A model generated the notes under the pieces. That model did no database searches. It worked only from the letters and a program-made list of their open reading frames with translations, and had not been told where the DNA came from. Positions 1 to 35,988 of a stretch of 60,000 nucleotides of DNA are shown here, in pieces. Position 1 is the first letter of the stretch. Each line of letters begins with the position of its first letter. This DNA is from Amphiscolops sp. MND2022 (taxonomy: Eukaryota): NCBI GenBank assembly GCA_964187785.1, contig OZ076409.1:77068001-77128000 (forward strand). Reading direction: 5' to 3'. Made by a program: the position numbers and the translations under genes.

Positions 1-2569
1 GAAACCTCTAAATTCTACGTACCAACAACTCTAGTAGAAGACTTCACCAACCTCAACAAACTCTTGGAAAATTCTTGTCAGTTAGCGCTAAAACAACCTC
101 TAAAAGACAAACAACTTATCGTCATGTCCGATGCAAGCTTCACAGCAGCAGGATATGCCATCATGATAGAAGATGACCCCAACCAGAAATTACAATCCAA
201 ACGTAAAACATACGCACCCATTGCGTTTGGATCAAAAACTTTCAACCCAACACAGACGAAAATGTCGATCTATGCAAAAGAATTTCTTTCCATATATTTT
301 GCACTCGTCGAATTTGGACACCTCATGTGGGGGAGCACCTTCCCAATCATCGTGTTCACTGACAATCGATCAGTAACCCGGTTTTTTCAAACGAAAATGA
401 TTCCTCCAGCGCTTTGGAATGCATGCGATTATGTATTACAATACAATTTTGTAATCGCCCTTGTAGCTGGATCGATGAACACAGCCGCCGATTTTTTATC
501 TAGAACCGAAGTTAACCCAATAGGGAAGCTCGAAATGACAATTCGCAACGATATTCACACAAAAGCAATTGAAGTGAATATACATTCAACTGGAATTGTC
601 GAAGAACAACAAATTTACATCCTTCCTGATGAAAAAATTGATGAAAATCAACTTTGGGAAGAAAAACAAAACACTCGCAATCAAGCACAAAACGAAACTC
701 ACAATGACCCAGAGAACGACGTCTCTGAATTACAGCAATTTCACAAACCTACATCCGGATTGATCTCTTGCTCCTCTGGACACTTCAAGGACAATGCGAG
801 GATACGCCTTGAACAGAACAATGACATAGTCCTTCGAAACCTGAGAGCCAAAATAGAAGGCGAACCGTTTGATGAAAATGAATTAGCTTCCGATTTCAGA
901 TATCAACACTACTTACAAAACATAACACGAATCGAGATTAAACACGAAGTTCTCACACGAAAATACTATACAGATACAGGAATGATCTCGCATTATCAAA
1001 TCCTCTTACCAATCCAACTTCTTGAAGAACTACTTCAAGCCCTGCATGGCCATAACTCAAACCATCCAGGAATCACTAAGATGATTCAAGAAGCACGTCA
1101 AAAATATTACTACCCATGTATGGCTAAATACATCAAAAAATGGGTCAGTAATTGTCAGGTTTGCATTCAAACAAAACGCATTAATAATGACCTCCTTAGA
1201 ACTGAACTCCTAAACTGCCCTGAATGGGTTCTTGGTCCGGAAGACATCCTGCAAATGGATATTTTGCCAAACCTCCCCCCAAGTGGAGGTTATGATCATA
1301 TCATCACAGCAATAGATGTCTTCTCAAGATACTTGTTTGCCTATCCTGTGACCCGCATTACTGCTACGGCAGTATCAAAAGTCATCATGGATATATTATG
1401 CAAACACACTTACCTTCCAACAACTATAATCACGGATCTGGGTACTCAATTCAATGCACAAATAACCCACGAAATTGCTGCAGTACTCGGAATTGAACTC
1501 AAACATGCTACAATGAAACATGCGCAAACAATAGGTCTCCTGGAAAGAACTCATGCCTCAGTTAAAACACACCTAAAAGCCGCGACAGGCAAATTTAGGA
1601 ACAACTGGCATAAATATCTTCCTCTGGCAGTCCTTAATCACAATACTACATACCATGCATCACTCGGGTGTGAACCCTCACGAGTTTTTCATGGACGCAT
1701 ACCACACAATATCCTAGACTATAAACTTGGATATAATCCCAATCCAAGATATCAACCGCAAACCGACATAGCAGACGAAACACAAAAGCGCATGAGAATA
1801 CTTCTAGACCAAACTAAGAAGAACATCATGCAATCTTACCTTAAATACAAAGCCTACTATGACCGCAAAGCAAAGGCAGCACCGCTAGAAACGACGGACT
1901 ATTGTTACATTCTGAACCCAAAAGCAGACACACAAGCGACGAAAATCCCGTTCCGAGAATTTAGATGGTGCGGACCGCAAACATAATCCGCAAAAAATCC
2001 TCCCAAACAATAACTACATAGTTAGAAGACTTGGAACTAACAAAACACAACTCCTTCATAGGATTCGTTTGCGCAAATTTACTCCGCAAGCGCCCTTAGC
2101 GGACATTTTTGTCCGTGAAACTGATTGGCAAAAAGATGATCAAATGCCAATAACAAATGATGACTTATACGCACAATCGTGGAACACGAATTTTGGATCT
2201 AGCCCGTTTAACGATGATCCAGTAGAAAATTCACATAATAATGATGATGCTGAATATACTCCGATTCAAATACCAGACGAAAACCGCCCTCCCTCCCCTA
2301 GTTCTTCAAAAAATAGTGGGGGGAGCCCAGTGGAACAGACCACTGAACCTGAAAAAGAAACGAATAATGAAAATTTACAAGAGACCCATGATGATGAAGT
2401 AGAAAACCCACAAAAAGACAGAAATATAACACCCGAAATTGATGCCCAAAATACCCCAGAAATCCCTGAAAATATCCCATCGCAAGAAGAACCCATAAAT
2501 ACCCGTGGTGAGAAATACAACTTACGTCCTAACCCCAACCCAAATTACTCTGACATATTCAGATATTAA
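1..2569 (+). pseudogene. pol: Gypsy pol: RT/RNase H connection, RNase H, integrase zinc finger, rve core and C-terminal tail; one frameshift near 1975-1990
   Basis: RNase H motifs MSDASF, YAKEF, VFTDNRSV, ADFLSR; HHCC finger H..HPGITKM...C..C; core QMDILP, IDVFSRY, TDLGTQF, LLERTH. After WCGP the homology continues in another frame (QKILPNNNYIVRRLGTNKTQLLHRIRLRKF...YNLRPNP, ORF 2069-2569). A CCGCAAA duplication marks the shift. Confidence 0.93.
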
Positions 2570-2796
2570 AAACAATACCTACTTCCAGACTCAAACTATC
2601 ACTAAGAAAACAATTGCAGAGGAAATTTTCCTTAATACTACCCTCCCATCATGTGTAACTTAACACACGCAAGTCTCTCCTTCACTCTGAAGAACGACTT
2701 CATTTCTCGCCCAAATAAATACATGGCGGAAAATTTACAAATCTATCATCAGTTCAAAACAAACATAAATAAACAGTTTGCAAACAGATACAACAA

Positions 2797-5700
2797 TTAG
2801 TTTTTCTTGCTTTTCAATGTCTTGCATCGAACATCTGTTGAACCTCCTTCTTGCTCAGCACTGGAGCAACGGCTGAGGGAGACATTAACCCGACTTAGAG
2901 TAGGGTCTGGCGACGGGGTACTGTTGACACTACTATGTCGGCTAACACTAGGAGTGGTGGTGGTAGAGCTAACAGCAGGCTTCTCCAGCCTTAAAACGGC
3001 CTTACGATATCCCGCTTCCAGTTTGCCGACTAGCGCGGATCTTCGGGAACTGCTCCCTTTGGAAAAATTCCAGATGGAAAACTTCTTGTCAGACAGCAAA
3101 TCAGTCCCTCGTCCTAACAACCGGAAGGCACGACTAATAGCCTTTGAATCTTTAAACAGACTAGAGACATGAGGCACAGTTTGGTAGGAAATTTGCAGGC
3201 TAACAACACAAGAATTAAAAGAGCTCTTATCGGATTCAAGTGTAGGTATTGGTACATCGAATACAGGTGGCACTTCCACCGTCGGTGACAAGCACAAACA
3301 AGAATATCTAAACAGTAACAGAAGTTCCGGCCTCGACTGAATTTCGTAATGAGTAGCTATAAAGGATACCCAATCTTCATACTCAGGAATGTTTTCTGTT
3401 CTCATCTTTGAAACGAATGACCGGTACTGACTAATCACTCTCACCTTCTCAGTAGAAGAAACCATCCCAGCAGCCACAAAGTGGGAAGACAGCTTCTCAA
3501 TAGCTGTGGCGTAAACCTCTTCAGGACTCTCAAAGACTACAGGGGAATCAAATGCGGATAAACCCCTGAGCAAATTAGATTTGACGATCTCGTGGGTCAA
3601 TAACTGCTTACAAAAGGATTTGCAGAAGCTAATTGACTGCGCAATAAATTTACTGGGACGGGATAACTTGCTGGTGAGAACCTAATGATGATAATCTTCG
3701 TTGAGCACAAATTCATCGTTGCTTTTAAAAGGCAAACTAGTAGTATCCAATTCCAGTCCGAGATAAGTATCCCAATCTGAGACGCTACCCAGAATACTAT
3801 CAGGCAGGATACTCTGCAGCTGCGAGTATGCAAACACGGCAAATTGGTTGAATAACCTGAAGCCACTGTCTATCTGTTTTTGAGTCTCTGGGAAGGCTGA
3901 ATTATCTGAAACAACATGAAATATTCAAAAAATGAGTGATTAAATACAATAAAATGATCTTCATGATGAGTCAAACCCTACATCAAGAAGAAATAAGTCA
4001 GATCAGACCATGACTCATGACTGAGCTTATAGTTCGTATTATTCATTGTTATTCTCGCATCAAACAATTGTTACTGCTGGTAACACTGAATACAAGTATT
4101 AGACGTCATCCTACGGTTCGAGGTGAAGCGTATATACGTCACTCTGCAGAATTGCTGAATACATTATACGTCATTAGGCGGTTCGAGGTGTGACGACTAT
4201 GCGTCACTATGCGGAATTGCATAGTGGACTATGCGTCATTATGCGGAATTGCAAGGTGGACTATACGTCACTATGCGGAATTGCAAATTGGTCTATACGT
4301 CACTATGCGGAATCGCACGTTAAGCTGATGCGTCACTTAACAATCAATACAGCGATGTCGTTGATGTGGAAAATAATTGAATAATGCGTTGTAGTTTACC
4401 CACAAGTCAGAATAAATTCAACAACAGATTAATAGGGTATAACAATGAAAATACAAAATGTGGTACGATCTAGCTGTGCAAAAACACTAACTACATATTA
4501 AAAAAGGAGTCTTAAAGGGAATTTATCAAGACATTTCGATACACAACCGAAATTATGGTTCCTAACCCGCCACTAGACAAAATAAACAGTAGTCTGAATG
4601 AAAGGAAAATGACTAACAGTGATCAATAACACATCTGATGATGAATAGTCTGGCCAAGAACGCTGAGTCCAATTGGAAACACTCATCAAGTGTGTTGGGC
4701 TAGAAAAACCTCACAGTTATAACACTATCTTTTGGATAACATGACAAACTGATGGACCCTTGTAGTCACAATCTGATAAAATAATTAAACAATAATAACC
4801 TCTTTCATGTGGAAACGGTAGGCGGGTAACCTTCCAATCTGGGTTAGGTGTTCGGTCACTTGTTCCCAATTATTCGACAAGATCTCTATGAGTTTGGAAG
4901 CTTCATCAAGAGTGTATTCCAAAGAAAGGACGCACTGAAAAAGGTGGCAAAGTTTCAACGAAGATCATGTAAAAGTTGACTATAAAAGTGGTATATACTA
5001 CCTTATGCAATAGAGCCAGACTTTGAAGCCAATCCCGATCCAAGGCTGTGCGAAGCTTCATAAGTAGATAATCCAAAATGCTTCTAAAGTCATGCCTCTC
5101 AATAATCTTGACTGTGGGGCTAACCAAACTGCGCTCGAATTCAGTTGGTCCATACGTCTTCACAATTGAAGCAGTTTTGGCACCGGGCAAAGAAGTAATT
5201 AAACATTCATTGAGATTGTCGCTAAATCCTGTGAGTGCAACGCAAGTTGGTACCGTTTCAAATAAACTCAGGAATGAAGCAACGAGATTGAGATTTCCCG
5301 TGGAAGAAGCATTCCTCTTGGGGCACCTCCGATACAGACGCGGTGCAGAACATTCTCAGACCAAAAATAGAGAATGACATATGGTGCTGTAGCTGTATGT
5401 TGAACCGCGAGTGAATAATAACCAGTTGTAGAAATGGCCTTGACACAGTAATCCATTAATTCCCGGAACATGTAGACGAGAATTTCCTGTAAAAGAAATA
5501 TACAATGATACAAAATTCAATTACTTTACTTCAACGGAGACAAAAAATAGTAATTGCAAGATGAAAGGAAAACAATTGTCAAACTTAATAAGGTAAAGAA
5601 CCTACACGAAAGATTACTTACGAAAAGCCGTTGGGGGCTCCAGTTTTGGCCAGAAATCCAGCTGCTGGAGGTCAACCTCACAAGTTCCTCATATACCCCA

Positions 5701-7091
5701 GTCAGTAGAGAGACACTTCCCCCATGTCTTAGGCCAAATTCCAAGATGCTGATTTGGGAGAACAGCTTCTCCGTAGGGCTCGTAGTTGCACTGAAGTCTG
5801 GAATGGACTCTTGCCCAACGAGAGGTCTCAGCGAATCGAGTTGAGGAGGAACTGGGTAGGAATCCCTCGCTTTCTTCTTGGCGTCTTGTAGCGATGTTCC
5901 CAGGATTTCCTTTTCGTCTTTGTCAAACAGAGGCATGCCGGGGACCTCCATTCGGATCCTATGTTCTCGAACTAAATGAGAATCAGTGCGGTAGTGTGAG
6001 ATAAGTTCCATGCTCCCGCGGCTCATGAGTGACAACTCCACACGACATACCCTGCACCACCATTTGTATGGTGACTTGTCTTTATCCAGAGGCCCTGTCG
6101 CTGAAAATTTGAGTACGGGGTGTCGCTTGAACATACTTCCCGTTAGGGAATATTTAGGTTTTCGGCGCTTCCCTCGCACTGTTGGGGGAGATTGTCCTGC
6201 CTCTTGTTGAACTATTCCCGTACTAACACTCGCCACCATGTCTTCCTGACTAGAAGTAGTTATAAGAGTAGTGGGTGTAATGTCATCAACCACTGCAACG
6301 GACATCGGTTGGTCTAGATTACCTTCTTCTCCAGTGATGAAGGACTGTGGGATTTTGCCCAAAAAATTAGCCAAGAAAAGAACCTCCTGTCTGGTGATAC
6401 TGATATTGGATGAGCTGGATCCAACAACTGGCTCGTTTCCTGCGGTAGCTGGTCTGGTAATACTCCCCCATGAATCTTGTTGACTCATTCCTCCTTCCTG
6501 GACAGGATTACTGGGAATCAAAGGATTGGGTAATGAACCATCAGTCCCAGTGATGAACTGACTAAACCTCGGCGAAAGAATACGGGGTGTTCCAGGGGCG
6601 TCTAAATCCGTAAAAAACTCTTGAGCAAAACTATGGCAATCCTCATCCATGGGTTTCGAAGTAGGAGCTATCTTAAGTTGAGTTGTATCAGGCTCAAGTA
6701 ACGAACTTTCCTCATTACGGAGGGTCTCCTCACGAATTATTGGAGGGTCTTCGGTCAACGCTGGCTCACTGGAGTTTTCTTTTGTAGTTCCTTCGTCAAT
6801 TTGCAAGACAGGTGTGCTGGGCGATTCTTGTGGAAGAGTTCGATTTAAAGTTCGTGGTGTGGCAACTTGTAACGCAGTATAATTTTTGTCCGGGGAACTG
6901 ATAGGAGTAGCTTGAGTTGTTCCTTGTTCAACTGAAACAAGCGTTTTAAACAAGCGTTTGAAAATGAAGTAAACTTTGCAAGTGAAACCTGTTTCAATAC
7001 TTCTAGAAACCGGACGCGGGGACCGGAAGTTAAAAAAGGAACGGAAATCACTTAGAAAGCTGAATAGGAAGCGCTTCAAAAGTTTGAACAT
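2797..7091 (-). pseudogene. Five-exon antisense accessory gene of the retrotransposon, about 1090 aa, BED-type zinc finger, possibly hAT-transposase-derived; exons 7091-5622, 5486-5002, 4934-4800, 4699-4618, 3905-2797
   Basis: All four introns are GT-AG and their phases join in frame (0,0,0,1). Exon 1 contains YKWWCRVCRVELSLMSRGSMELISHYRTDSH. There are two lesions: a 1-nt deletion near 5272 and an in-frame TAG at 3684-3682. Confidence 0.75.
4100..4339 (+). repeat. Array 1: 7 full and 1 partial unit of core TATRCGTCAYTATGCGG plus 15-16 bp variable linker
   Basis: Cores start at 4100, 4133, 4165, 4198, 4230, 4262, 4294 and (partial) 4327. The array lies in intron 4 of the antisense gene. Confidence 0.9.
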
Positions 7092-7714
7092 GGCTTTGAA
7101 AATTATCTAAGCCTTTTCAATTTTGCAGGCCTGGCCAGTCTCGCAAAATCACAAATTCAAAACAAATTTATCAATCTAAAACCAAAAAAAAATGAGTTGG
7201 ACTAACGGGAAGAAAGTTCAGGCAGTTCTTCAGGGTTCCAAAAATCATCACGTCGTAATGGATTGTAATTCTTTCGTGATCTGCGTTTTTCGCTCTGATT
7301 GGCTTCAGAATTCGCATCCATGGTGAGGCAGTCGTACCAAAACAATTGAGAACTCCCACGAGAATTATAAAGGCAAAATAAACCGTAATGAGGAGAATAC
7401 TGTAGTAAACAATGATATAATCAATCTGGGAAGAAACCGGGAAGAGAAAGTTACTGAAAAGCTGACTCTGCAAAGTCTAAAATACTTTACTGAAACTGAG
7501 ACTTAAATGTGACTCTTACGATGAAAATGATCAAGCAGTAAGGCGTGGCGTAATATAGCAAAGAAAGGCAAAAAAGCAAATGAGACAGATTTGCGCAAAT
7601 GTGCAAAACAAATACTGTGATCTGATTGGCTAATTAAATGTCAATCACGTCTGCCAGCGTGATTGATTGACTCATTATACAACACCAACGCATAGATGTT
7701 ATTTTGGTTGAAAG

Positions 7715-7860
7715 TATACGGCAGTATGCGGATTGCAGATGCAAAGTATACGGCAGTATGCGGATTGCGAAAGAAGAATATGCGGCAGTATGCGGATCGA
7801 ATGAAGACGTGTATGCGGCAGTATGCGGATTGTGAAAGAAGAGTATGCGGCAATATGCGG
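7715..7860 (+). repeat. Array 2: 5 units of core TATRCGGCARTATGCGG, period 32-33 bp
   Basis: Cores at 7715, 7747, 7779, 7812 and 7844, between the divergently oriented accessory genes. Confidence 0.9.
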
Positions 7861-8697
7861 TTCTCGCTGCACAACTTTAATAGAATGAATTAATGCAGTT
7901 CGTGATTAGAAACGAACAGATGAAGAAGTATTACATAATACCTTGATGAAAATTAAAACATTCTCAAAAATAAACACGTGTGTTATTGCTGATGCTTAGT
8001 ATACATGATACCTAGTCCTATGCAGAATTTAGCTAATTTAGTGGATTCTGAACTAAAGGGGTCTTTTAGAAGTTTAGGGACAAAAACAATTGAAGTCATT
8101 GAACATCATCTGTTAAATCACCAATCCATTCACCCTTTTAAAATGCGGGATTAGATTTATTACATGTTTTTTACTTAAAATTAGTGTTTGAGCAAAATAT
8201 GTAGTTAAACTAAAGGTGGAATATGTTTCATAACTCTTTTTCATCATTTCATAAAATTAGTCATGTAGAATTAAATAAATTTTCCCCCCCCTAAACTTTT
8301 CAATGGAAGCCGCTATGGAAGTATTTGACTACTTTGATGTCCCGCTGAGTTTTGTTTGTATATCATTTAATTGCCTAGAAGTTGATGTATTTTCTAGTGA
8401 TAAATGATGAATCGTTTAAGTGTTAAACAAAACACCTTTTATGGAAATTGTTTACGAATCATCATAAGTGAGTCTCATGACTTGATGCCTAATAAAACCC
8501 TTATAAAGGAAAAGGAGGAATTCAAAAAGCGTGACTCTCAAATTTTCCGCGGGTTTTGTCAAAAGCAAAAGGAGAAAGATCATCAATCACCATATGGTCT
8601 TTAACAATTCAAAACTCAGTCGCTTTTTGAAATAACTGATAATTTGTTACCTGAAGAAACTCACCCATCGATTTCAATCATAACATTTTCTGACAAA

Positions 8698-9726
8698 ATG
8701 GACAAGTTACAATTTAACTTTGAAGAAGACAGCCTTTATTCACCTCTGTCCCCCGATGTGATCGATATATCCAGTGGTTCCGAAGATGCTTTTTCGATCG
8801 CCCCTGGTAACACCCAGCAACTAGAGGAAAAATTCAGAGTAAACCCGGCAGGAAGTAACTTGATGGCTGCATTTGTCGGGTCATCTCTGGCGACCTTGTA
8901 CCCCAACTCAACTGTGCCCCAAGGGAATCATGAAACTACAGTGGCAGGAGGCTCACAAATAGAAAAGAATCTTATGGAACTGATGAGTGACCCCCAGGAT
9001 GAACCCACAGATTCCCCGGCATCATTCGTCGACAGTGAGTTTGAGGAAAGTAATCTGTTTCCCTGGATGGACAACAGAGGCCCGGCCCAGGACACAAATC
9101 ACTATGGTCGGCCATGCGTTAGAGTAATGCCAGTTCTAAGGGAAAACCAGAACGAGAGTGGAGTTCTGCCGACTCCAATGTTCGAACAAACACTCAATGG
9201 AGGCCCCGATCTACCGGTTATGCAGAACACACTAACAAACGACACCATGGAATATGAGCCACATGATGTTGGAGCTCAGTTGCAAATTCCGGTCTCGAGG
9301 AACATGCAGGGGTTCAGCCTGTCCCCAATGTTGTTCCCGATGCAGATGGCGGACACAGCCCAAGAAATGCACCGAACGCCGTTGATTATGCAGCAAACAG
9401 CGCAGATTGGTTTCCCCTTCAATACAGTTCACAGTTCTAATGTGTTACTAATTCCGGCCAGTGAGAGACAGGGCATCCGACTTCTGCCGACAGTTATGCC
9501 GAATGTGGCGGGGTATTGTGAACTATGCGGCAAATGTTTTGACCAAGTTGCATTGGAGACCCTCGGCCAATACTTGGTTGCCACTGAGTATGAAGGTGAG
9601 ACTGTTAAAGAAAGAACAATAAGGTCAAAAGCCTTCATCCATGGGTTCGAGGCAGCCTTGTTCCTTTTTAAAAATGCGGGACTGTCGCATCCCCCAAGAT
9701 GCGATGGTTCCGCAGTGCAACTCTAG
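8698..9726 (+). CDS. Orphan accessory protein (342 aa from first ATG): acidic/proline-rich N-terminus, C-terminal YCELCGKCF (CxxC) followed by a predicted helical segment
   Basis: Intact ORF 8644-9726 with ATG at 8698, clearly richer in GC than its flanks. No family recognised. Confidence 0.6.
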   Translation: MDKLQFNFEEDSLYSPLSPDVIDISSGSEDAFSIAPGNTQQLEEKFRVNPAGSNLMAAFVGSSLATLYPNSTVPQGNHETTVAGGSQIEKNLMELMSDPQDEPTDSPASFVDSEFEESNLFPWMDNRGPAQDTNHYGRPCVRVMPVLRENQNESGVLPTPMFEQTLNGGPDLPVMQNTLTNDTMEYEPHDVGAQLQIPVSRNMQGFSLSPMLFPMQMADTAQEMHRTPLIMQQTAQIGFPFNTVHSSNVLLIPASERQGIRLLPTVMPNVAGYCELCGKCFDQVALETLGQYLVATEYEGETVKERTIRSKAFIHGFEAALFLFKNAGLSHPPRCDGSAVQL

Positions 9727-10015
9727 AAAGGAACAAGTACTGGAACCTTTTCTATAGACTCGCACAAACTCTAATAAACTCATTGTGAACATGTTTTTGT
9801 ACGTTGCTACTTTCAAAAGGTCATGTAGATATCATTTCTATACTTTGCTTACCATGAAGAAACACCCATTATAGTGCTAATGTACCTTGGATTCCTGATT
9901 AAGAGCCCCTATTTTCATCACAAATCTGATATTTCACCGCTTAATCATATGAACTATAAGTTTCTGATGCATCCAAATCAACTCCGTAATAATTTGTGCT
10001 TTAGCATAGTACTAT

Positions 10016-10195
10016 TATGCGGTACTGTGCGGATCGAGGTGTGACGTAAACTTGTCACCATACGTTTTTGGTAATACCATTATGCGGCATTATACGTTTC
10101 AAGGCGTGATGTATATGCGGCACTAGACGTCTTTTGTAGTAACATTATGCGGCATCCTGCGGATCGAATAGGAATGATTATACGTCATTATGCGG
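10016..10195 (+). repeat. Array 3: 6 units (one degenerate) of the same 17-bp core, period 32-33 bp
   Basis: Cores at 10016, 10049 (degenerate), 10081, 10114, 10146 and 10179. Linker ATCGAGGTGTGACGTA resembles the array 1 linker TTCGAGGTGTGACGAC. Confidence 0.85.
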
Positions 10196-10631
10196 TTTTC
10201 GCAGGACTTATTGAACAACACTAGGACGTGCTTCTAATACTATTTAGAAACCATTTTACTTGTATCTTAACGTTGTTTTAAGATATTTCCAGGGTTCTTT
10301 AGTTTCTTCCCATCAGGTACTTCCCATGATGTCATGTAAATTGTGCTATTTTTGTAACATGACCTCATTTGACATAATTCTATTTTTATGATATTTCCAT
10401 ATGATGACTATAGTAAAAATGAGTGTCATGTTTTTAAATATTTTTCGCTTTTGTAATAAATTGGAAGGATTATTGAATATTTGATCCGCATCTTGAGCAG
10501 TTGCTTTTTGAACGATTGTAAACTTCTCAATTCTCGACTACTATAAACTCTACATCTCTGTTTTCTTCCGTGATAATCAAACTAATTCAAATTCTTCCCC
10601 AAAAGCCAAAATACTTTTCACTTGAGACGAA

Positions 10632-11213
10632 ATGGGGAATAGACGTAACAGGAGATCTAGAAGACTAGAAACCCCTTCCCCAGAGCGAAGTATGGAAAGG
10701 GCTCAAGCTGAAACACCAAACACAGGTAATATTACTTTAACTAATAATAATGTAGTTGTTCAAGAAAATTTAGGTGAAAATAGATTTGGAGAACAACTAG
10801 TTGAACCAAGCCAAATCAGCAACGAGATACAAGCTTGGACCGAAATATTTGAGCAGAAGAACAATGATAGAATAGAGAAAATGAGAGAAGAGATGGACAA
10901 TAAATTAGAAGCGATCTTAAGGGAGGTCAAAACTAACAAAAGCGTGTCAACAGTCACAAATCCGAGGTCAGATACTAATGAAACGCAAGATCCTCAACCA
11001 TCGGGATCCAGAACAATAAGGTCTATAGGAGTTCATGCATCCAACAATGAAAACTCAGAAACTGAAGACGAGGATTTTCCTCTTAGAGCCTCGAAAGCAA
11101 AAGACTTAAAACAACCCGCAAAACCTATATATGGATCAGATGTAGATGTTACAATTCATTCGGATGAAGAATCTGATGCGGAGTCGATAGAGGATTATCA
11201 CAGCATGTTTTAA
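10632..11213 (+). CDS. N-terminal part of a gag-like ORF starting inside the LTR, truncated at the LTR end
   Basis: Basic N-terminus (MGNRRNRRSRR) and coiled-coil segment (IEKMREEMDNKLEAILREVK). The ORF runs to ...EDYH at the CA terminus and stops three codons into flanking DNA. Confidence 0.55.
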   Translation: MGNRRNRRSRRLETPSPERSMERAQAETPNTGNITLTNNNVVVQENLGENRFGEQLVEPSQISNEIQAWTEIFEQKNNDRIEKMREEMDNKLEAILREVKTNKSVSTVTNPRSDTNETQDPQPSGSRTIRSIGVHASNNENSETEDEDFPLRASKAKDLKQPAKPIYGSDVDVTIHSDEESDAESIEDYHSMF

Positions 11214-13109
11214 CATCCATTGTTGCAAAACATCAAAAAAATTGAAGGGACACTTTGGTGAAAAAAATTTTTGCGAAAAAAAGTCTCAAAATGCCGACAA
11301 AATCTGAAAGGAATTATTTAGGGGGTTTCTGAAAGGGGACTCTTTAGTCTCTCCCGGTATTGTATGTTACGCGGAAAAAGACGAAAAATCTTTTTGGTTC
11401 AGTTCGGTAGGCCAAATGATACAAATTGGACCATAAAATTTTGTAGAACTTTTAAGAACTATTTTGGCCAGTTCGTGTAGATTAAAAAAGTCACTATAAT
11501 AGTCGCGTTTCACTTCATGAAGCGCCGACTAAAAACACACTGAGAAGCAATCATCGATTCATTCTTGTTTGGAGACCTTTTCTTCCAAAACAGAAACTCA
11601 AGAAACTGTATTCGAGACATATCATCTTTTATCGTTGGAAAACCAAGTATCCTTAAAACATTCTCCAAGTACCGAGGATGTCCTGTTTCACTGAGGAAAC
11701 TCGAAAATCTAGTTTTGTGGTTTTTGACTCTGAGCGTACTTTGGACGTTTTTAAGTCGGCGCTTTTTGTGAAACAAAAAAGCCCGACTCAGATGACTTTT
11801 CTTTTTTCTCCAGACCACAGACCTCAAAATGAAAGGTTCACTTTTTACAGAAACTAATGAATTACTAGACCGGCGAACTCCGGCCATTGGAAACGCATCT
11901 AAGTTGGTGCAAAGGATCCCCTTTCATTTTCCCCCTTTTTTAACGTAACATACAAAACCGAACAAGACTTAAGGGTCGCCTTCAATTTTTGCGATACTTT
12001 GCAACAGAATGGATGTTGAAAAATCCCAAAGGGTCCTCCTTTAACGTTTTTGGGACTGCTCAAAAGTTCCATATATATCCACCAATAAATTTGTTTTCAC
12101 CCCTTCATATTTTTGACGTTATATCGGAGCCATATTGAGTTTAAACAAAAAAGGCGAAAAGGAGGCGGAGGTTAGAAAACAAACGAACCAATTCGTCCCA
12201 GCACGAACCATTTAGGTGTTTCGAAACTTTCATACGAGTTTTTCATAGAAAACGTCCTGAGCATATTTTTAAAACTTTGCGCTTTTTGAACCTCAAGTAT
12301 AACGCCCAATTGAAACGTTCCTGTCTTGTTCCTCAGTTGCGATACTATTTTGCTTGGTGCTCGAAGCACGTGCGGTATTTTTGGAGTGAAATTGAAACAA
12401 TCAGTACAGAGGCAAGCCAGCATAAAATACCGTTTCGATGAGAACTGACTGACCTTCATTACAATTTTTCTGCATGACTATTTCAATTAATTGAAAATTG
12501 CAGAAACACGAAACATTCAGATTCGAGCCTGGAATCTTTGAGAAATTGGCCGGGAAAACCGACTTTAACGAAAAATTTTCATTTGTTAACGCCCGGATGA
12601 ACGCAAGAAATCGATCTATTTCATATACTTTCTTCGGAGCCAACAATGCGAGACGAGACCCGGATCCCGCGCAAAAAGCAGTACATTAATTGCCGACTAC
12701 TACACGATGAGAGATTGAAGAAAAAAGTCCAACTGACGTTTTAGCTACATTTTCTCAAAACTCGAGCCTAGCCATTAAACCAGGAACCAGTAAAAACTCG
12801 AAAAACTTGAAAAGTTTTGGCACTTTCTAGTTCGTTTAATATCTATTTTTTAAAATTAAATTTTCGAAAAAGCATCATTTTTGTCCAAACAAGAGTATGC
12901 TAAGTGGTAATGCTAGTGGTTGAGTTATGTGGATACTTTTTCCTATTCAAAACATCCGAAGGTGTCAAGCAATAGTCGAGAAGAAAGCTCAATACCCCAA
13001 TTCCGCGAAGTAGAAGCCCAATAAACAGTTATGCAAAAAAAGTTCATTTCCGCAATTCCGCGGGGTGGACGCCAAATGAACAGTTCTGCTTTTCTAAGTC
13101 GGTGCCCTT

Positions 13110-13412
13110 TCGGATACTATCTTCCCAAAGCAAGCTATTGTACCATATTTGCAGCCAAACGGTCAAACATTGGTGGACTTGAAGCTGTGGTTTCAAAGTG
13201 ACTTGCTCAAGGTCACAAAGGTCTGACTGCTCACCGTTGCTGTTTTTATTTCTGCTTTTCTCAGCTAAATGCGCTATTTTTTGTCACAGACCATACCGCT
13301 CAGCTAGGGATGAAGGACTTGCTTAAGGCCCAACAATGGTGAGTTGAGAGACTCGAACCTGATACCGCCCCAGGACAGACCGAATGCTCTAACCACTACG
13401 CCATGTTCCCTA
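13110..13412 (-). mobile_element. tRNA-derived SINE-like element; a second degenerate copy at about 13420-14420 is interrupted by the mini-hAT
   Basis: The minus strand reads TGGCGTAGTGGTTAGAGCA (A box)...GGTTCGAGTC (B box). The body (CGGATACTATCT...CCAAA.GGTCAA...CTTGAAGCTG) is repeated in the adjacent copy. Confidence 0.6.
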
Positions 13413-13458
13413 GCGCATTTTCCGGATACTATCTGGCAAATGGTCATCATACTTGCAA

Positions 13459-14237
13459 TAGGGATGCAGTCCCGGGAATCCCGAAACCCCGGGATCCCGG
13501 ACTAATTGCCCTACCCAATCCCGCCCGGGATTGACTTCTAATCCCGGAAATCCCGGAATTCTCACCGCCCTTTGTTTCAAGCTTCAACTTCAATTATTTC
13601 AGATACAATGGGTGACTTTGACTTTCGAGAATGGTCCGGTAGTTCAATGGTCTGGCGCCACTTCCTTCGCAATACTGATGGCTGTACTGATGCCGAACCA
13701 ATAGTCGACGTGGCAGATCCGACGTTCAAAGAGAAACTACTTGCAGCTACGACCGTCAACGCGGAGTCGGAGTCCGAGTCATCCATGCATTACATCAGCT
13801 CCGGAATTGAGCACTTGATTAAGAAGGAATTTTATTTTTTCTACACTAACAACACCAAAGGAAAGTTTCTAACTCAAGTAGAAAAGTGGCTGGACACCAT
13901 TCGGCCTACATCGGTGGAAGCAGAGCGTTGCTTCAGTGCTGCGGGCTTGTTTGCTTCTAGAGTTAGAAACCGCTTGGGAGACGAAGTTCTGTCGGTTCTG
14001 CAGATCCTACGATTTTACTTCGCGAAGCATGCTAACAAACAGGACGCGCCATAAATTTGATATCCAATTGTTTGCATATGGTAAACAAGCAAATAAAAAA
14101 TCTTCAAATATATTGTTTTTACATTGATAATTCCTGACGCAAAAAATAATCTTTAATCCCGGGATTATCCCGGGATCGGACATTGGCTAATCCCGAATCC
14201 CGGGATTAAGAATAGTGGTCCGGGATTAGCATCCCTA
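13459..14237 (+). mobile_element. Internally deleted hAT transposon (779 bp)
   Basis: TIR TAGGGATGC / GCATCCCTA; perfect 8-bp TSD ACTTGCAA (13451-13458 and 14238-14245); subterminal ATCCCGGGAT repeats. Confidence 0.92.
13572..14054 (+). CDS. Truncated hAT transposase: start of the BED region fused in frame to the C-terminal dimerisation domain
   Basis: SSMVWRHFL (BED start) and IRPTSVEAERCFSAAGLFASRVRNRLGDEVL (hATC motif). The catalytic core is absent. Confidence 0.75.
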   Translation: MFQASTSIISDTMGDFDFREWSGSSMVWRHFLRNTDGCTDAEPIVDVADPTFKEKLLAATTVNAESESESSMHYISSGIEHLIKKEFYFFYTNNTKGKFLTQVEKWLDTIRPTSVEAERCFSAAGLFASRVRNRLGDEVLSVLQILRFYFAKHANKQDAP

Positions 14238-17200
14238 ACTTGCAACCAAATGGTCAAGCGATTGTCGGCTTGAAGCTGATTTTGATGTGACTTCTAGTTC
14301 AAAAGTCTGACCTCATGACCATACACACAAGCTGGAGAACTTGCTCAACACAAAACAGCGGTGAGCTGACGCCAATTCGAACATCTAATACTCGTCAACA
14401 CAGTCCAAATGCTCTAACCAAAACCTAGAAAAATTGACTATCACCGGTTCTTTTCAAAAACGTTTGAAAATACTCTATGTCGTCTAACAAAAGTATGCAA
14501 AGTAGCCCAATTCTGATTTTCAATTCTCTGTATCTTGCGGTATTCTCAAGAAACATCCAAAAATTGCACAAAATTTGTAGAAAAATTTGGAAAATTGAAC
14601 TTTTGGTTTTAAGGTTTCTTTTTTAAAAAGTAGCGGAATGTTTCGTCGTTGAACTCAATGGATTGTCCAATTCAAAAATTCGGCGAGTTTCTATTCATTT
14701 CATGCCTTCCGTAGAAGAAACAAGCCTGGAACGGCTCAAGCCGGCGCCCCGTTCAAGTTTCAAAAACAGCAAAGTTTTTTCAATGTACAAAAGGGGACTA
14801 TTGTGAAAAGATTCATCTGCTGAAAAAAACCGAAGAGATACCCGGGAGACTCGAAAACTGTTTTACTTTCCCTCGCAACATGAAAAAAAAACATTACCAA
14901 AAATTGTAAAAGGGGGACCCTTTGGGCTTTTTGAAAATCCAGTTTTTGCGAAAAGTCTCTGAGACGAAACAACAAACATCAAAAAACTTCAAAATCTGTC
15001 AATTCGTCTGTCTTAAAAAGAAAAAAAGTCACTACTATAGTCTGCGGTTTCTACGAAAGCGACGACTAAAAACTGAATGTTACTCCTACATCATTAGGTT
15101 TATTAGCCAAACTTTTGAACTTCCAGGATTTAAAATTGGCTTTTGGCATTTTTACTCTTTATTGGGCATTTTGTCATCTAAGAAAAACAGGTTTTCTCAT
15201 TTTGAAAGTATACAAAAGGGTCTGTTTTGTCCTGGAACACTGAATATTCATACCCGCCAAAGCATTTTAAAAAATGAACGAAAATTGGCAAAACTGCTCA
15301 CGGTTGAAGTTGAAGAAGACGCCCGGTAAGCACCGGGATGTTTTCCGCTAACTAGAATAGTCACGTAACTCAATTAGTCAAGTAACTCTAAGTGAAGTGA
15401 AACTGGGAGGCTTGTCAGAATTTGGAAAAACAAGACGGGAACGTCTATAGTCGGCGCTATATCTAAGGCTCAAAAAGCGCAAAACATTTTTTTTGGAAAA
15501 AACTTGAAATTTTCGAAAAATTTTTTTCTTTCGGAAAATGTTGCACAGTGCCGAGATATGCAAAAAAGGGGACCATTTTTGATTTCCAAACATGCATTCT
15601 GTTGCAAAATAACAAAAAACTCAAAGGGGACATTAAAAAATCAAAAGGGGGGACCCTTTAGCCTCGGCCGGTTTTGTAGGTTACGTTGAAAAAGTAAAAA
15701 ATGAAAAGGGGGACCCTTTGGAGACAAAAAATTTTTCGACAAAAAAGTCGCACAGTGCCGAAAAAACGAAAAAAATCGAAAGGGGGGACTCTTTAGTCCC
15801 GTCCGGTTTTGTAGGTTACCTTGAAAAAGTAAAAAATGAAAGGGGGGACCCTTTGCACTAAGTTTGCCTTGGCCCCTTTGCCGGACTGGGCGCCTTAGGT
15901 GGTTTCAGGATTGTTTCTAAAAAGTGGACCGATCAGTGTGAGGATTGTAGTCTGAAGAAAAAACAAGACGGGAACGTCCCAAGTCGGCGCCATATCTTAG
16001 GCTCAAAAATATTCAAGGAACAACTATTGGAAATATTTGGAAAAAAGTTAATTTTTTTCCAAAAAAAGTATTTGTGATAAAAAAAAGTCGCACAATGCCG
16101 AAAAACCTAAAAAGGGGTCATTTAGGCTCATTCAACGTTTTCTACAAACCGAAAACTTCAAAAAAATGCAAGGGGTACCCTTTGATAAAATTCGAAAATT
16201 TTCGAAAAAAGTCGCACAGTGCCGAAAAAAACCCAAAGGGGGGACCCTTTGGTATCACCTGTACTTTTGGAAGCATTAAAAAAATTTATGGTTCAGTGCG
16301 AGAATCGAACCCACGCTCTCCGGCTTGTTCGAAGATGAACAAATATGAAAGATGAACAAATTGTAAGAAAAGCGGACATCTCCAGAGATTGTCAACTGAA
16401 AAAAAAACAACAAAAAAACTACTCACTGTAAGAGTCGAGCTTTTTTTCTTAAGGGAAAAGGCGCCGACTAAAAAACAGTCACTGCTATAGTCGGGGATTT
16501 TTCCCTTAATGGAAAAGCGCCGACTAAAAACGCAACACAGATCATGATTTTCCACCACCACCATTTACGTGGGTTTTCGTTCTTTGCGGACACTTCAGGG
16601 GGTTTTCTGAACAAAAATTTTTCACAAATTTACTGGTTATTTTGCACGTCGTTAAATTCTGTGGATCTTCAAACCTACGGAAACGTTTAACAAGTCGGGA
16701 ACAGCCCAAGTCGGAGCCCACTCAAGGTTCAAAAAGGGCAGTTTTTTAAAATGAAAAAGGGTCTTATTGGGAAAATTTTCGTCGAAATTAGTGCCGAAAA
16801 GACCTGAAGGACTACCCATAAGACCCCAAAACCGCTTTTCGTCTAATTGAAAGCAAAAAACTCAATTTTTTGAAAAGTCGCGGCGCCGAAAAAACAATAG
16901 GTGGCCTTTGTTATCCCCTCTACTTTTGCAAGCATAAAATTTTTGTTACAACAGGATAAAACAAACACGCTGTTGGATCCACTGAAAGAAACTCGTTAAC
17001 CTGTTGGAAAGAGGCATTTGAGTTGCACATCATGAATTTGGACTCATAGAAATGTTCATAGAATTGTGTCAAATCGCTGGTCTTGAAAAAAAAGCCACTA
17101 TTAGTGCGCAACTGAAAATGGTACAAATGCGACGAAATGGTTGAAAATTGGATTTTTTGAAGTTTTTTCTTATAAAACAGCCGATTGTACTCCGTAAAAG

Positions 17201-17858: not shown

Positions 17859-19628
17859 CTAGTGATTGGAAGAGTTTTCAACGCGATATAAATTTATGAC
17901 GTCAAGAATGGGCTGTCTGCACAGAGGACACGTGGGATTGATGGCCAAAAGAATAGACGCACAATGGTTGCATGCAACCATATGGCCACATTTGTAGAAC
18001 GCACTGTTGACCACTTGCGTTTCATCCAAACACACGACACAAGTCCCAGCTCTTTCCGACACCATGTGCAAATTACTTGACGATGAAGCGGTCATCAGGC
18101 TTTGGTTGAGAACCATCTGTTGCAGCGTGTTCTCCAGCTGAGTCTGTGCTGTGTTTTGACGCGTCATCATGTTTTGCATGGCTTCCATCATGGTCTCAAG
18201 TCGCAATAGTCTGTCGTCACCCATTTGTGCACCCGTTGCGGGTCTTCTCGGGCGAGTGGGGAGATGGGGAACAGGTACTGCGGCAGGCTCATCAAATGGG
18301 TTGTCAACAGGGTTTTCCAAAAGCCGAGGCAACCCGTACGGGTCTATTCCCACATCTCTGAAGTCATTTCTCACAATCCGAGATCGAGGAAGGCTGTCCA
18401 AAGTCCTTTGCACTTCTCTTCTCGCTTCTTGTGAAAACGTATCGGGGCTGCTCTCCATTCTATGGATCAAATGTTGTTCCAAAATGTCAGCAAATGTGCT
18501 GTTCAAGACTCGAGATACAACTTGATTGCCAACGAGGTTCCCAATTTCCGCGAGATCGTCGAATCTGTCGCTTCGGATAATATTCCTTTGTTGGGTATTG
18601 TGTTCTTGGCGGAAGTTAGCCCATCCAACGGGTGCAGCGGGCTCAGGTGGTGGAGGAGGAAGTTCAGCGGGGACATGTCTTCGTGGATGAGGTACGGCAA
18701 CAGCTAACCGTCTTGCTGCCGGGATCGGAGGGGGCGGAGGTACGGGTATAGGAGGCCCGTTTCTGGGCGAAGAAGTTCCTGAACTCGAACTTGCGTTTCT
18801 TCGGTTCAGTGACGCTCTTTGCCCCCTTGCAACATTCCCGCCCTGGTTGGAGGTTCTGTTATTTCTATTCGACAACAACCGCTCCAAACGCTGCCTGAAC
18901 GAATCAGCAAGCAAGTTTCGGACTTGATGCGACTCTCGTAAAGAAGACAGCTCGTCTCTGGCTGGAGTGGAATCCCGATCTATCGCCGTTGTAATTCTTT
19001 CACTCAACATACTGGATATAAGGAAGGTTCTCTCACGTGTTATATGATTAACACTAGAAAGAGTATCAACCTCGTTTCGCCTTTCAAGTCTCTGCCTTTC
19101 GAAGAAGGAATCCCAAACAGAAACCGGCTCGGATTCTTGGCTCGAGGATCTTTCATCGTTATGGACGGTTGCTTCAATTACATCTTCAGAATTTCCATCA
19201 AGTAGAACTGCATTGTGAGATCTTGGAACAGAATTGATGTTGTTTTCTTGTTCCTCTGCATCAGATGCTTCGATGGAAGACCTCTGAGACGCTGCTCTTG
19301 AGGACTGCAAGATCTCTTCGCTGTATTCACTGACTGCCTCCTCCAATCGTCGTCTTAGGACCCTGGATAGATTGCTCAACGCATCTCGTTGAATGAGATC
19401 GCGGGTTGCAAGAGTATCCAGTTCATTTTGTCTTTCCTCTTTTTGTTGTCGAAAGAATGTCTCCAAGATCGGATTCGTTTTATCCACATGACTGTTTTTA
19501 GAACTGCTGAAGGCATCGACACCCACTTTCTGACAAAACTCTTCACTGACGAAAACGACTTGAGGTCTTGAATAATTTGTCGTCTTTCTGCGTTTCTGAG
19601 GTCTGGATTTTTTACTAATGGGACTCAT
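17859..19628 (-). CDS. Intronless RING-HC finger protein, probable E3 ubiquitin ligase (589 aa)
   Basis: C-terminal CVVCLD...FYKCGHMVACNHCA...CPLCRQPI (IAP/neuralized-type C3HC4), preceded by a coiled segment, a proline-rich linker and repeated EL..L....VS..L...F...LE helices. Confidence 0.88.
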   Translation of the reverse strand: MSPISKKSRPQKRRKTTNYSRPQVVFVSEEFCQKVGVDAFSSSKNSHVDKTNPILETFFRQQKEERQNELDTLATRDLIQRDALSNLSRVLRRRLEEAVSEYSEEILQSSRAASQRSSIEASDAEEQENNINSVPRSHNAVLLDGNSEDVIEATVHNDERSSSQESEPVSVWDSFFERQRLERRNEVDTLSSVNHITRERTFLISSMLSERITTAIDRDSTPARDELSSLRESHQVRNLLADSFRQRLERLLSNRNNRTSNQGGNVARGQRASLNRRNASSSSGTSSPRNGPPIPVPPPPPIPAARRLAVAVPHPRRHVPAELPPPPPEPAAPVGWANFRQEHNTQQRNIIRSDRFDDLAEIGNLVGNQVVSRVLNSTFADILEQHLIHRMESSPDTFSQEARREVQRTLDSLPRSRIVRNDFRDVGIDPYGLPRLLENPVDNPFDEPAAVPVPHLPTRPRRPATGAQMGDDRLLRLETMMEAMQNMMTRQNTAQTQLENTLQQMVLNQSLMTASSSSNLHMVSERAGTCVVCLDETQVVNSAFYKCGHMVACNHCASILLAINPTCPLCRQPILDVINLYRVENSSNH

Positions 19629-34530: not shown

Positions 34531-34749
34531 ATCCTTGTGTGATAATCCTTGTGTCATACGATTTATCAGATATCAAGGATCTTCGTCATCAATCAAGTGC
34601 CATGTGTATCATCATGTTGAGGGAAGACACACACCCGTGGTCTGCAACGAAAGTAGGGAACCCCATACCAGCCACTATACCAGTAGACCAGTAACAAACC
34701 AGAGCCACATATGCGGTAAAGGAGTCGGCTTAGGTTTTTTTTCTTCTGA

Positions 34750-35988
34750 CTCGCCCCAATCCCAGTCATAACAGTTTATTGGAATTGCACACATAGGACG
34801 ATACTATGGTGTAGAAAATGACTAAAATATTCCTTCGAATCGTATGAACAGTTTTAGCAAAAGTCAAAAAAAGTCGAAAAATGGCTGTTTTTTGGCCATT
34901 TTTGGGTTAATTTAGGCTATGTTTCTCACATCCCAGCAATACGAATTTGTTGAAATTACACACAGAGGACCATAACATGATGTAGAATGACTGTACAAAT
35001 TCCATTCGAATCGTATGAACAGTTTTTGAGATAATAGAAAAAACCAGAGCCGCATATGCGGTAAAGGAATCGGCTTAAGTCTTTTTCCTTCTGACTCGCT
35101 TTCGTTCGAATCGTATGAACAGTTTGTGAGAAAATCGAAAAATGACTTTTTTTGGCCATTTTTGGGCTAATTTTGGCTATGTTTCTCACATCCCAGCCAT
35201 AGGATTTTGATGCCATTGCACATATAGGACTCTAATATGGTGTAGAATAACTGTAGAAAATTTCGTTCGAATCGTATGGACAGTTTTTGAGAAAATCGAA
35301 AAAAGTCGAAAAATGACTATTTTTGGGCCATTTTTGGGTTAAATTTGGATATGTTTCTCCCATACCAGCCATACGATTTTTATGCCATTGCACATATAGG
35401 ACTCTAATATGATGTAGAATATCTGTAGAAAATTTCGTTCGAATCGTATGGACAGTTTTTGAGAAAATCGAAAAAAGTCGAAAATGGCTGTTTTTTGGCC
35501 ATTTTTGGGCTAATTTTGACTAAGTTTCTCACATCCCAGCCATACGATTTTGATGCCTTTGCACACGCAGGGGCCCCTTTGGGTGTAGAATGACTGTGCA
35601 AAATTTCGTGAAAATCGTATGGACAGTTTTTGAGATATTTGAAATTTTCTTGAAAAGGTCGGGAGAAAAAAAAACAGCACGATTGCATAAGTAGTCGAAA
35701 ATTTTTTCCGACTCCTAAAAATCGAAAAATGAGTGTTTTTCGGCCAATTTTGGGCTAACTTTGGCTGTTTCTCACATCCCAGCCATACGATTTTGATGCC
35801 ATTGCACATATAGGACTCTAATATCGTGAAGAATAGCTGTAGAAAATCTCGTTCAAATCGGATGGACAGTTTTTGAGAAAATCGAAAAAAATGAAAAATC
35901 ACTGTTTTTTGGTCATTTTTGGGCTAATTTTGGCTGTTCCTCACATCCCAGCCATACGATTTTGTTGAAATTACACACAAAGGACCAT
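34750..35988. repeat. Satellite-like tandem repeat, unit about 165 bp (also 37630-38545, 40190-40500, 41250-41816, 45360-45670)
   Basis: Recurrent TTTTTGGCCATTTTTGGGCTAATTTTGGCTATGTTTCTCACATCCCAGCCATACGATTTTGATGCC...TTCGAATCGTATGGACAGTTTTTGAGAAAATCG. Confidence 0.85.

What the first reader, a model, noticed from the sequence alone, without database searches (positions are those of the whole stretch)
2570..11202. Gypsy element with an 8.6-kb accessory module: antisense spliced BED-finger gene, orphan CxxC gene and three phased repeat arrays
Seen: downstream of pol, where env or a short 3' UTR would normally be, there are two divergently oriented genes and three arrays of the same 17-bp motif, all before the apparent CA terminus. 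Known: BED fingers of hAT transposases bind short subterminal repeats, and typical Gypsy elements lack such cargo. Inference: the element may encode its own sequence-specific DNA-binding protein and carry its target arrays. That would be a self-regulating or anti-silencing system, conceptually like the VANC proteins of plant VANDAL transposons but in a retrotransposon.
Basis: partly seen in the sequence, partly recalled or inferred. Interest (0 to 1): 0.82.

Follow-up and report, generated by a model that had tools for sequence, protein, structure and literature searches.

The report
Retrotransposon carrying a disarmed DNA transposase
A Gypsy retrotransposon family carries a conserved backwards gene, likely spliced and likely descended from a disarmed DNA-transposon enzyme, plus a second unknown gene and three arrays of one short motif that the first protein is predicted to bind, which would let the element control its own activity.

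Summary
The anatomy is real and richer than reported. After pol come an antisense gene, a sense CxxC gene and three arrays holding 16 copies of a 17-bp motif at 32/33-bp spacing (0.3 expected by chance). The 3' LTR ends at 11202 and contains the first 190 codons of gag. The antisense gene is more than a BED finger: my model has five exons and about 1,080 residues. Language-model features and a weak but rank-1 fold match to Hermes point to hAT-transposase descent, and the catalytic glutamate motif is absent in 89 of 89 rows. Both cargo genes have dozens of diverged relatives with conserved domains, and they share contigs with gag subfamily by subfamily. That argues for inherited cargo, not a one-off nested insertion. 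This copy is broken. Binding, expression, LTR start and host are untested. Plant Retand elements have the same general layout and VANDAL/VANC the same array geometry. A traceable, intron-bearing dead hAT transposase in a Gypsy element was not found in my literature searches.

The parts
1..2569 (+). 3' part of Gypsy pol (RNase H, H2C2 zinc finger, integrase core, C-terminal tail); reading frame shifts near 1980
   Evidence: Pfam RT_RNaseH 9.6e-15, Integrase_H2C2 9.1e-16, rve 2.7e-10; two ORFs 1-1986 and 1916-2569
2797..3905 (-). Antisense gene exon 5: helical insertion-like domain and C-terminal region of a hAT-like transposase, catalytic Glu motif absent; in-frame stop at 3684-3682 in this copy
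   Evidence: 180 relatives at E<=0.001; model of relative P0354 gives Hermes 8edg_A as rank 1 of 48,161, Z 5.4, rmsd 4.3, 132 aligned; ERxFS in 0 of 89 rows; acceptor residue D in 13 of 13 rows reaching that column
4133..4310 (+). Array 1: six 17-bp motifs (two TATRCGK-like half-sites 10 bp apart), period 32-33 bp, inside predicted intron 4 (4714-3906) of the antisense gene
4715..4934 (-). Predicted exon 4 of the antisense gene (two in-frame stops in this copy); the least secure exon
   Evidence: splice motifs and phase fit only; no clear relative among fetched proteins
5002..5486 (-). Exon 3: RNase H-like strands of a hAT-type core, first Asp site replaced; frame break near 5292 in this copy
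   Evidence: 35-66% identical relatives in one frame with the same acceptor and donor positions; Atlas features hAT-like
5622..6931 (-). Exon 2: variable Ser/Pro/Thr-rich region, basic GKRRKPKY motif, C2H2 BED/U1-like zinc finger and helical domain
   Evidence: 53 relatives at 40-96%; C49 and C52 in 50 of 50, H69 49 of 50, H75 48 of 50, H80 50 of 50; 43 of 53 read 'VS' at the donor
7207..7321 (-). Predicted first coding exon of the antisense gene
   Evidence: ATG, GTTAGT donor and phase fit with acceptor at 6932; acceptor-like residues in 22 of 53 relatives; the exon itself was not seen in relatives
7715..7860 (+). Array 2: five copies, between the divergent start codons (394 bp from 7321, 838 bp from 8698)
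8698..9726 (+). Sense 342-aa gene: acidic N-terminus with a SUMO-interaction-like VIDISS motif, variable middle, conserved C-terminal domain with CxxC plus conserved His and Cys
   Evidence: 74 relatives at 35-94%; invariant C273 and C276; domain 50-91% versus middle 19-51% in 8 relatives, motif in 46 of 74; no Pfam or Atlas family
10016..10195 (+). Array 3: five copies, ending 437 bp upstream of the gag start codon
10632..11201 (+). First 190 codons of gag, lying inside the LTR
   Evidence: N-terminus of ~560-aa Gag proteins (12 of 96 with zf-CCHC); 92 of 95 continue DYH-MVTG-like across the CA/TGG junction
11193..11202 (+). 3' end of the 3' LTR (GATTATCACA); flanking DNA follows
   Evidence: four same-contig pairs identical up to EDYH, one running into Gag and one into unrelated tail, 0-2 differences in 190-193 aa

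Best explanation
This is the 3' half of a Gypsy LTR retrotransposon whose family carries a conserved antisense gene, likely spliced and likely descended from a hAT DNA transposase that lost its catalytic residues, and that protein is predicted to bind the three phased motif arrays on the element's own DNA and so regulate it. Shown: the order of parts in this copy, the arrays, the LTR end, gag starting inside the LTR, family-wide conservation of both cargo proteins, and subfamily-matched contig sharing with gag. Inferred: (a) hAT descent and loss of cutting activity; (b) four introns, kept through the RNA intermediate because they face antisense to the genomic RNA and so are not spliced from it; (c) the zinc fingers of a multimeric transposase scaffold would read TATRCGK half-sites spaced one turn (10 bp) and three turns (32-33 bp) apart, on one helical face; (d) since the arrays sit at the divergent cargo promoter, upstream of gag and in the gene's own intron, binding would most likely keep these CpG-rich promoters open or active; (e) the acidic, SIM-bearing CxxC protein would be an effector partner. 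Odds by step: inherited cargo 0.9, hAT descent 0.8, binds own arrays 0.55, activating or anti-silencing rather than another effect 0.35.
For: Arrays far above chance and phased; CpG o/e 1.65-1.76 in arrays versus 0.64-0.90 elsewhere in the element. Nearest antisense-gene cluster: 8 of 15 listed contigs also hold the nearest CxxC clusters (25 contigs), 0 of 15 hold any of three other CxxC clusters (44 contigs); 4 of 15 hold nearest gag, 0 hold three other gag sets. Identity to the window correlates across shared contigs: CxxC-gag rho 0.79 (n=30), antisense-gag 0.50 (n=17). Finger domain 44-84% versus linker 5-38% in 11 of 12 relatives compared. Splice positions conserved in relatives and all four phases fit. 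Atlas hits 0.90-0.92, named families all hAT-related. Hermes 381-568 is the top fold match to exon 5; I had noted the hAT idea before that search. Hermes BED fingers bind subterminal repeats as a multimer (PMC10368747). VANC arrays lie in introns and upstream regions (PMC5735166).
Against: No binding, expression or chromatin data. The Hermes match is weak (Z 5.4, tied with unrelated rows at 4.8); Foldseek, Pfam, PDB sequence profiles and a comparison with a hAT fragment in the window found nothing. The finger's best fold matches are U1-type fingers of RNA-binding proteins (TUT4, TUT1; Z 3.6-4.8). Atlas hits share 140-164 features, under the 170 typical of same-family hits. A second Asp-like motif (GFDG/NFDE) survives in relatives. 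Co-location rests on equal contig lengths, not on seen gene order; antisense-CxxC identity correlation is not significant (rho 0.40, p 0.14, n=15), and four other antisense clusters matched none of the four CxxC cluster sets listed. Pol is tied in by one Gag-integrase fusion protein only (P0277).
Confidence: 0.5

Rival explanations
1. The dead transposase acts on the reverse-transcribed cDNA rather than on transcription: it binds the arrays in the pre-integration complex and helps nuclear entry, end-bridging or tethering to preferred target chromatin.
For: hAT scaffolds multimerise and gather distant repeats (PMC10368747, passages). A basic NLS-like motif is conserved. No chromodomain was called in the integrase tail. 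A nuclear-import role has been suggested for plant antisense ORFs (PMC7264820, read).
Against: Two of three arrays sit just upstream of start codons, a promoter-like placement; none lies at the mapped LTR tip.
Confidence: 0.15
2. The arrays are bound by a host factor (enhancer or insulator), and the cargo proteins act elsewhere, for example as RNA-binding or SUMO-pathway decoys against host defence.
For: The finger's best fold matches are U1-type RNA-binding fingers. The CxxC protein has a SIM-like motif in 46 of 74 relatives (motif definition recalled). Arrays in Retand elements have no known ligand (PMC11963269).
Against: In a hAT context the N-terminal finger is the subterminal-repeat binder, and paired half-sites in helical phase suit a multimeric binder.
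Confidence: 0.2
3. The protein is a self-limiting repressor: it binds the arrays and damps the element, or antisense transcription itself feeds small-RNA silencing.
For: Antisense transcription convergent on pol could make dsRNA (PMC7264820, read). An array in the gene's own intron and promoter suits negative feedback.
Against: The clusters total about 700 member sequences per cargo gene, so carriers were successful; a dsRNA role alone would not conserve protein domains.
Confidence: 0.1
4. The module is a nested hAT DNA transposon, a passenger with no role for the retroelement.
For: Transposase-like gene plus short repeated motifs is the anatomy of a hAT element. This copy is broken at several sites.
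Against: No bounding TIR/TSD: 24 chance-like 11-mers, none starting CAG or TAG, no control run. Catalytic Glu motif absent family-wide. Subfamily-matched sharing with gag and CxxC. Domain-level conservation down to about 23% identity. One array lies beyond the CxxC gene, next to gag.
Confidence: 0.05

Closest known systems
Plant Retand/Tat Gypsy elements (Grande, RIRE2, Retand) with antisense TRP28 ORFs and tandem arrays (PMC11963269 passages; PMC7264820 main text read)
   Same: Long pol-to-3'LTR region (2.9-6.6 kb there), antisense ORF kept family-wide, predicted DNA binding, tandem arrays, function unknown.
   Different: Here the cargo is a multi-exon gene traceable to hAT transposases (no TRP28 hit; the review says aORF origins are mostly unknown). 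There is a second, divergent conserved gene, one motif is shared by three phased arrays, and gag starts inside the LTR.
VANDAL/VANC anti-silencing system of Arabidopsis Mutator-like elements (PMC5735166, abstract and one results section)
   Same: [quoted passage not shown]
   Different: VANC is in a DNA transposon, has DUF1985/DUF287 domains and is shown to bind and demethylate. Nothing of that is shown here, and no such domain was hit.
hAT transposases (Hermes; ZBED5/FAM200, ZNF862, DUF4371-type relatives)
   Same: Order of parts: N-terminal zinc finger, RNase H-like strands, helical insertion, C-terminal region; Atlas and fold leads.
   Different: Catalytic Glu motif and first Asp site absent, no TIRs, carried by a retroelement, below Pfam detection.
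Animal Gypsy elements with non-env cargo: planarian Burro (PMC6431247 passages), rotifer ORF3s (PMC5408684 abstract)
   Same: Large invertebrate LTR elements with extra genes kept across families.
   Different: Their cargo, as described in what I read, is apoptosis, ubiquitin, nuclease, esterase or env-type domains; no transposase-derived binder with arrays.

Membership tests
Ty3/Gypsy LTR retrotransposon | pol order RT-RNase H-integrase | tested here: met
   RNase H precedes H2C2 and rve; RT lies outside the window
Ty3/Gypsy LTR retrotransposon | Gag with capsid and zinc knuckle linked to this pol | tested here: met
   (Ty3_capsid E 0.0016, zf-CCHC 0.0026, both under curated cut-offs); P0277 joins this Gag to this integrase tail
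Ty3/Gypsy LTR retrotransposon | LTR ending in CA followed by a TGG primer site in 5' copies | tested here: met
   92 of 95 Gag relatives read DYH-MVTG-like; four 5'/3' pairs diverge after EDYH
Ty3/Gypsy LTR retrotransposon | PPT, LTR 5' end and target-site duplication | tested here: inconclusive
   No convincing PPT+TG site; the 5' half is outside the window
hAT transposase (descent) | N-terminal BED zinc finger | tested here: inconclusive
   CxxC..H-x5-H conserved; no Pfam zf-BED; weak fold hits to ZBED1 BED (E 3.5) and U1-type fingers
hAT transposase (descent) | RNase H-like core with helical insertion, hAT fold | tested here: inconclusive
   Atlas 0.90-0.92 with hAT families; Hermes rank 1, Z 5.4, rmsd 4.3, 132 aligned; profile searches blank
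active hAT transposase | DDE catalytic triad, with Glu in an ERxFS-type motif | tested here: not met
   0 of 89 rows; columns just past the Hermes-568 equivalent are mostly Pro (47 of 80, 49 of 80); first Asp site is Gln/His. Motif form recalled; E572 essential per PMC2533014 passages
hAT DNA transposon | TIRs and 8-bp TSD bounding the gene | tested here: not met
   this copy only; old TIRs could have decayed
VANC-type anti-silencing system | Target motifs in tandem arrays in non-coding parts of the same element | tested here: met
   (geometry only)
VANC-type anti-silencing system | DUF1985/DUF287 domains in a Mutator-like element | tested here: not met
   No such Pfam hit; the element is Gypsy
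VANC-type anti-silencing system | Protein binds the motifs and removes silencing in trans | not testable with these tools
   needs DAP/ChIP and methylation or chromatin data
Retand lineage | Antisense TRP28 (PF04195) ORF in a plant non-chromovirus element | tested here: not met
   No PF04195 hit in any segment scanned

The most novel reading that the evidence does not exclude
A retrotransposon lineage has domesticated a hAT DNA transposase as its own sequence-specific anti-silencing factor. The multimeric dead enzyme binds helically phased, CpG-bearing arrays at the element's promoters and, with an acidic SUMO-interacting partner encoded next to it, shields the family from host silencing. This would be a VANC-like system built independently, across transposon classes and probably in an animal.
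Probability: 0.3. Interest if true: 0.9.

Novelty: new variant of a known kind. Interest (0 to 1): 0.72.

Why it matters
Antisense accessory genes of Gypsy elements have been seen in plants for decades with origin and function unknown (PMC7264820). Here the origin is traceable, the candidate target is an explicit 7-bp half-site in phased arrays, and dozens of diverged subfamilies exist, so protein-motif co-evolution and self-regulation can be tested directly. It would show one transposon class domesticating another class's enzyme, and could explain how an LTR family reaches high copy number despite silencing.

Tried and rejected
No whole genome is held. No sequencing run was listed, so expression and splicing are untested. 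No DNA of relatives came from viral, prokaryote-genome or metagenome contigs, so gene order and arrays in other copies were not seen and dN/dS was not computed. Pfam gave no BED, hAT or TRP28 hit for any module segment. PDB sequence profiles were blank or chance-level. Foldseek gave no match at E<=0.001 for either model, and Hermes was not among the rows listed from Foldseek's top 501. Comparison with the window's separate hAT fragment gave no match. The CxxC domain has no Atlas neighbour (best 0.76) and was not folded. No Rfam family or tRNA. LTR start: 8224 (purine-rich run plus TG) failed the filter; 7979 matches the 3' end at 9 of 12 but has no PPT. I lean to the CxxC gene being single-copy per element (715 versus 677 members; same-contig duplicates were complementary fragments), which would put the LTR start further 3', but this is unresolved. 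The linker identities printed were out of frame and were redone. Four look-ups of earlier scan notes were empty. Literature listings showed no report of a hAT-derived gene in a Gypsy element; subscription papers and supplements were not seen. The host was not identified; an acoel resemblance is recalled only and unverified.
Full report
Observation. The window opens in the 3' part of a Gypsy pol: RNase H, H2C2 finger and integrase core in that order, with a frame shift near 1980 and a stop at 2569. Three arrays follow. The pattern TATRCGKCAHTATGCGG matches 18 times in 60 kb at up to 3 mismatches, against 0.30 expected; 16 matches lie in 4133-4310, 7715-7860 and 10016-10195, all on the + strand. 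Copies are 32 or 33 bp apart, with one 65-bp step. Each 17-mer is two TATRCGK-like half-sites 10 bp apart, and 27 of the 32 + strand TATRCGK sites in the window are in the arrays. These spacings are about one and three helical turns. CpG observed/expected is 1.65-1.76 in the arrays and 0.64-0.90 elsewhere in the element.

Element end. The ORF at 10632-11201 is the N-terminus of a ~560-aa Gag: 96 longer relatives, 12 with a precomputed zinc knuckle, and weak Ty3_capsid and Retrotrans_gag hits. In 92 of 95 of them the sequence continues DYH-MVTG or a near variant, which is CA followed by TGG, a primer-site start. On four contigs one ORF runs on into Gag and another, with 0-2 differences over 190-193 residues, leaves into unrelated sequence after EDYH, as the window does. 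So 11202 is the 3' LTR end and gag begins inside the LTR. Protein P0277 fuses this Gag to an integrase tail that ends like the window's pol, tying gag and pol together. The LTR start is not settled.

The antisense gene. The finger-bearing ORF has 53 relatives of 40-96% identity, all from ENA records. In 43 of 53 the conserved part ends in 'VS', the translation of a GTAAGT-type donor. Read-through relatives show a next exon in one frame with shared boundaries. A last exon has 180 relatives among 50%-identity representatives, down to about 23% identity, with the acceptor residue D in 13 of 13 rows that reach it. My model is five exons (7321-7207, 6931-5622, 5486-5002, 4934-4715, 3905-2797), about 1,080 residues, with all four intron phases consistent. 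Exons 1 and 4 rest on the window alone. This copy is broken by a frame shift near 5292 and stops in exons 4 and 5. Array 1 lies in intron 4. Antisense introns are not removed from the genomic RNA, which explains their survival in a retroelement (inference). The finger domain is 44-84% identical in 11 of 12 relatives compared while the linker is 5-38%; the twelfth is a near-identical copy.

What the protein is. Pfam finds nothing in any part. The finger has CxxC in 50 of 50 aligned rows and His at 69, 75 and 80 in 49, 48 and 50 of 50 (alignment A1 left out 4 of the 53 relatives, one chimera and three whose match ends early). Its model (pLDDT 79.8) matches U1-type C2H2 fingers weakly and the ZBED1 BED finger at E 3.5. 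From recalled motifs I noted a dead hAT transposase and then tested it. The Atlas feature search on residues 290-700 of relative P0255 gave hits of 0.90-0.92 whose named families are DUF4371, FAM200-ZBED5 and ZBED1 RNase-like, with Dimer_Tnp_hAT and DUF659 lower down; shared features of 140-164 suggest distant kin. The last-exon model (P0354, pLDDT 80.2) gave the Hermes transposase as rank 1 of 48,161 chains, residues 1-192 on Hermes 381-568, Z 5.4, rmsd 4.3, 132 aligned. It is the only row at Z 5 or more but within 1 of unrelated rows. Foldseek and profile searches did not confirm it. Just past the residue aligned to Hermes 568, where essential E572 lies (PMC2533014, passages), the family has mostly prolines, and ERxFS occurs in 0 of 89 rows. 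The first Asp site reads Gln or His; a second Asp-like GFDG/NFDE persists in relatives but not in the window. I put hAT descent at about 0.8 and regard cutting activity as lost.

The CxxC gene. It has 74 relatives at 35-94%, invariant C273 and C276 and near-invariant H244 and C334. In 8 relatives the C-terminal 107 residues are 50-91% identical and the middle 19-51%; an acidic N-terminus carries a VIDIS-type motif in 46 of 74, which resembles a SUMO-interacting motif (recalled). No family was found.

Is the module inherited? With no DNA of relatives available, I used contig length as an anonymous fingerprint. Of 15 listed contigs of the nearest antisense cluster (42 members), 8 also hold the nearest CxxC clusters (25 contigs from 26 of 57 members) and none holds any of three other CxxC clusters (44 contigs). 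Four hold the nearest gag set and none the three other gag sets. Other blocks recur: CxxC cluster 5 with one gag cluster (5), cluster 6 with another (7), two other antisense clusters with a third gag cluster (3 and 2). Across shared contigs, identity to the window correlates for CxxC-gag (rho 0.79, n=30) and antisense-gag (0.50, n=17) but not significantly for antisense-CxxC (0.40, n=15). Four other antisense clusters matched none of the CxxC sets listed. Member totals are similar, 715 and 677. No TIR/TSD pair bounds the module. Last-exon relatives also occur on short contigs, including MGnify and JGI records, so the family is not confined to one long-contig assembly. Order and distance in other copies were not seen.

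Mechanism. Hermes binds short subterminal repeats through several BED fingers of a ring-shaped octamer (PMC10368747, abstract and passages). A catalytically dead descendant would keep that binding. The arrays offer paired, phased half-sites at the divergent cargo promoter, 437 bp upstream of gag and in the gene's own intron. That is the geometry of VANC targets, found in VANC21 and VANB21 introns and upstream of VANA21 (PMC5735166, abstract and one section). I therefore predict a self-targeting regulator, most likely activating or anti-silencing, with the CxxC protein as a possible effector. Rivals are a role on the cDNA, a host-bound enhancer with unrelated cargo function, self-repression, and a passenger insertion. 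None of the functional steps is shown.

Comparison and novelty. Plant Retand elements have 2.9-6.6 kb between pol and the 3' LTR, antisense TRP28 ORFs predicted to bind DNA, and tandem arrays in about half (PMC11963269, passages). A review says the origin and function of such ORFs are unknown and that similarity to other TEs is lacking (PMC7264820, main text read). Burro and rotifer elements carry other cargo (PMC6431247 passages; PMC5408684 abstract). A gene-capture review mentions VANC in Mutator-like elements (PMC13317346, passages). The layout is thus a known kind. The new points are an intron-bearing, hAT-derived, catalytically dead cargo gene, a second conserved gene, three phased arrays of one motif, and gag starting in the LTR. 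Nine literature listings showed no such case, within an open-access library and without supplements. The host is an unidentified eukaryote, probably an invertebrate (inference from the repeat landscape). Verdict: new variant of a known kind, interest 0.72.

Noticed in passing
protein P0039: Chimeric ORF: LTR-borne gag start plus the first primer-site codons joined in frame to the zinc-finger region of the antisense gene, implying an inversion or a copy inserted into another copy.
   Followed up: no
protein P0277: In-frame Gag-integrase fusion lacking protease, RT and RNase H; a candidate internally deleted non-autonomous derivative on a contig that also holds both cargo genes.
   Followed up: partly
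window 10632-11202: About a third of gag is encoded inside the LTR, so every 3' or solo LTR carries an ORF that reads into flanking DNA and could make chimeric proteins.
   Followed up: partly
window 13542-14054 (+): Separate hAT transposase fragment with an intact-looking ERCFS motif (Dimer_Tnp_hAT E 0.018); no match to the cargo family.
   Followed up: partly
window 17859-19646 (-): Intronless 595-aa ORF with a C-terminal C3HC4 RING finger (E 6.3e-12); likely a host E3 ligase.
   Followed up: no
window 35131-35635, 37633-38192, 41270-41817: Three arrays of a 172-bp unit, with a ~2.5-kb near-duplicate segment between the first two.
   Followed up: no
window 32928-34553 (-), 42638-43711 (+), 49067-49786 (-): Non-LTR retroelement fragments (RVT_1 and endonuclease hits).
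   Followed up: no
window 51906-52691 and 56810-59535: ORF fragments recalling Polinton/Maverick polymerase, capsid and integrase genes (recalled resemblance; no matching Pfam hit).
   Followed up: no
window 11203-16700: Dispersed A-rich repeat family with GGGGGACCCTTT cores in both orientations, starting right after the LTR end.
   Followed up: no
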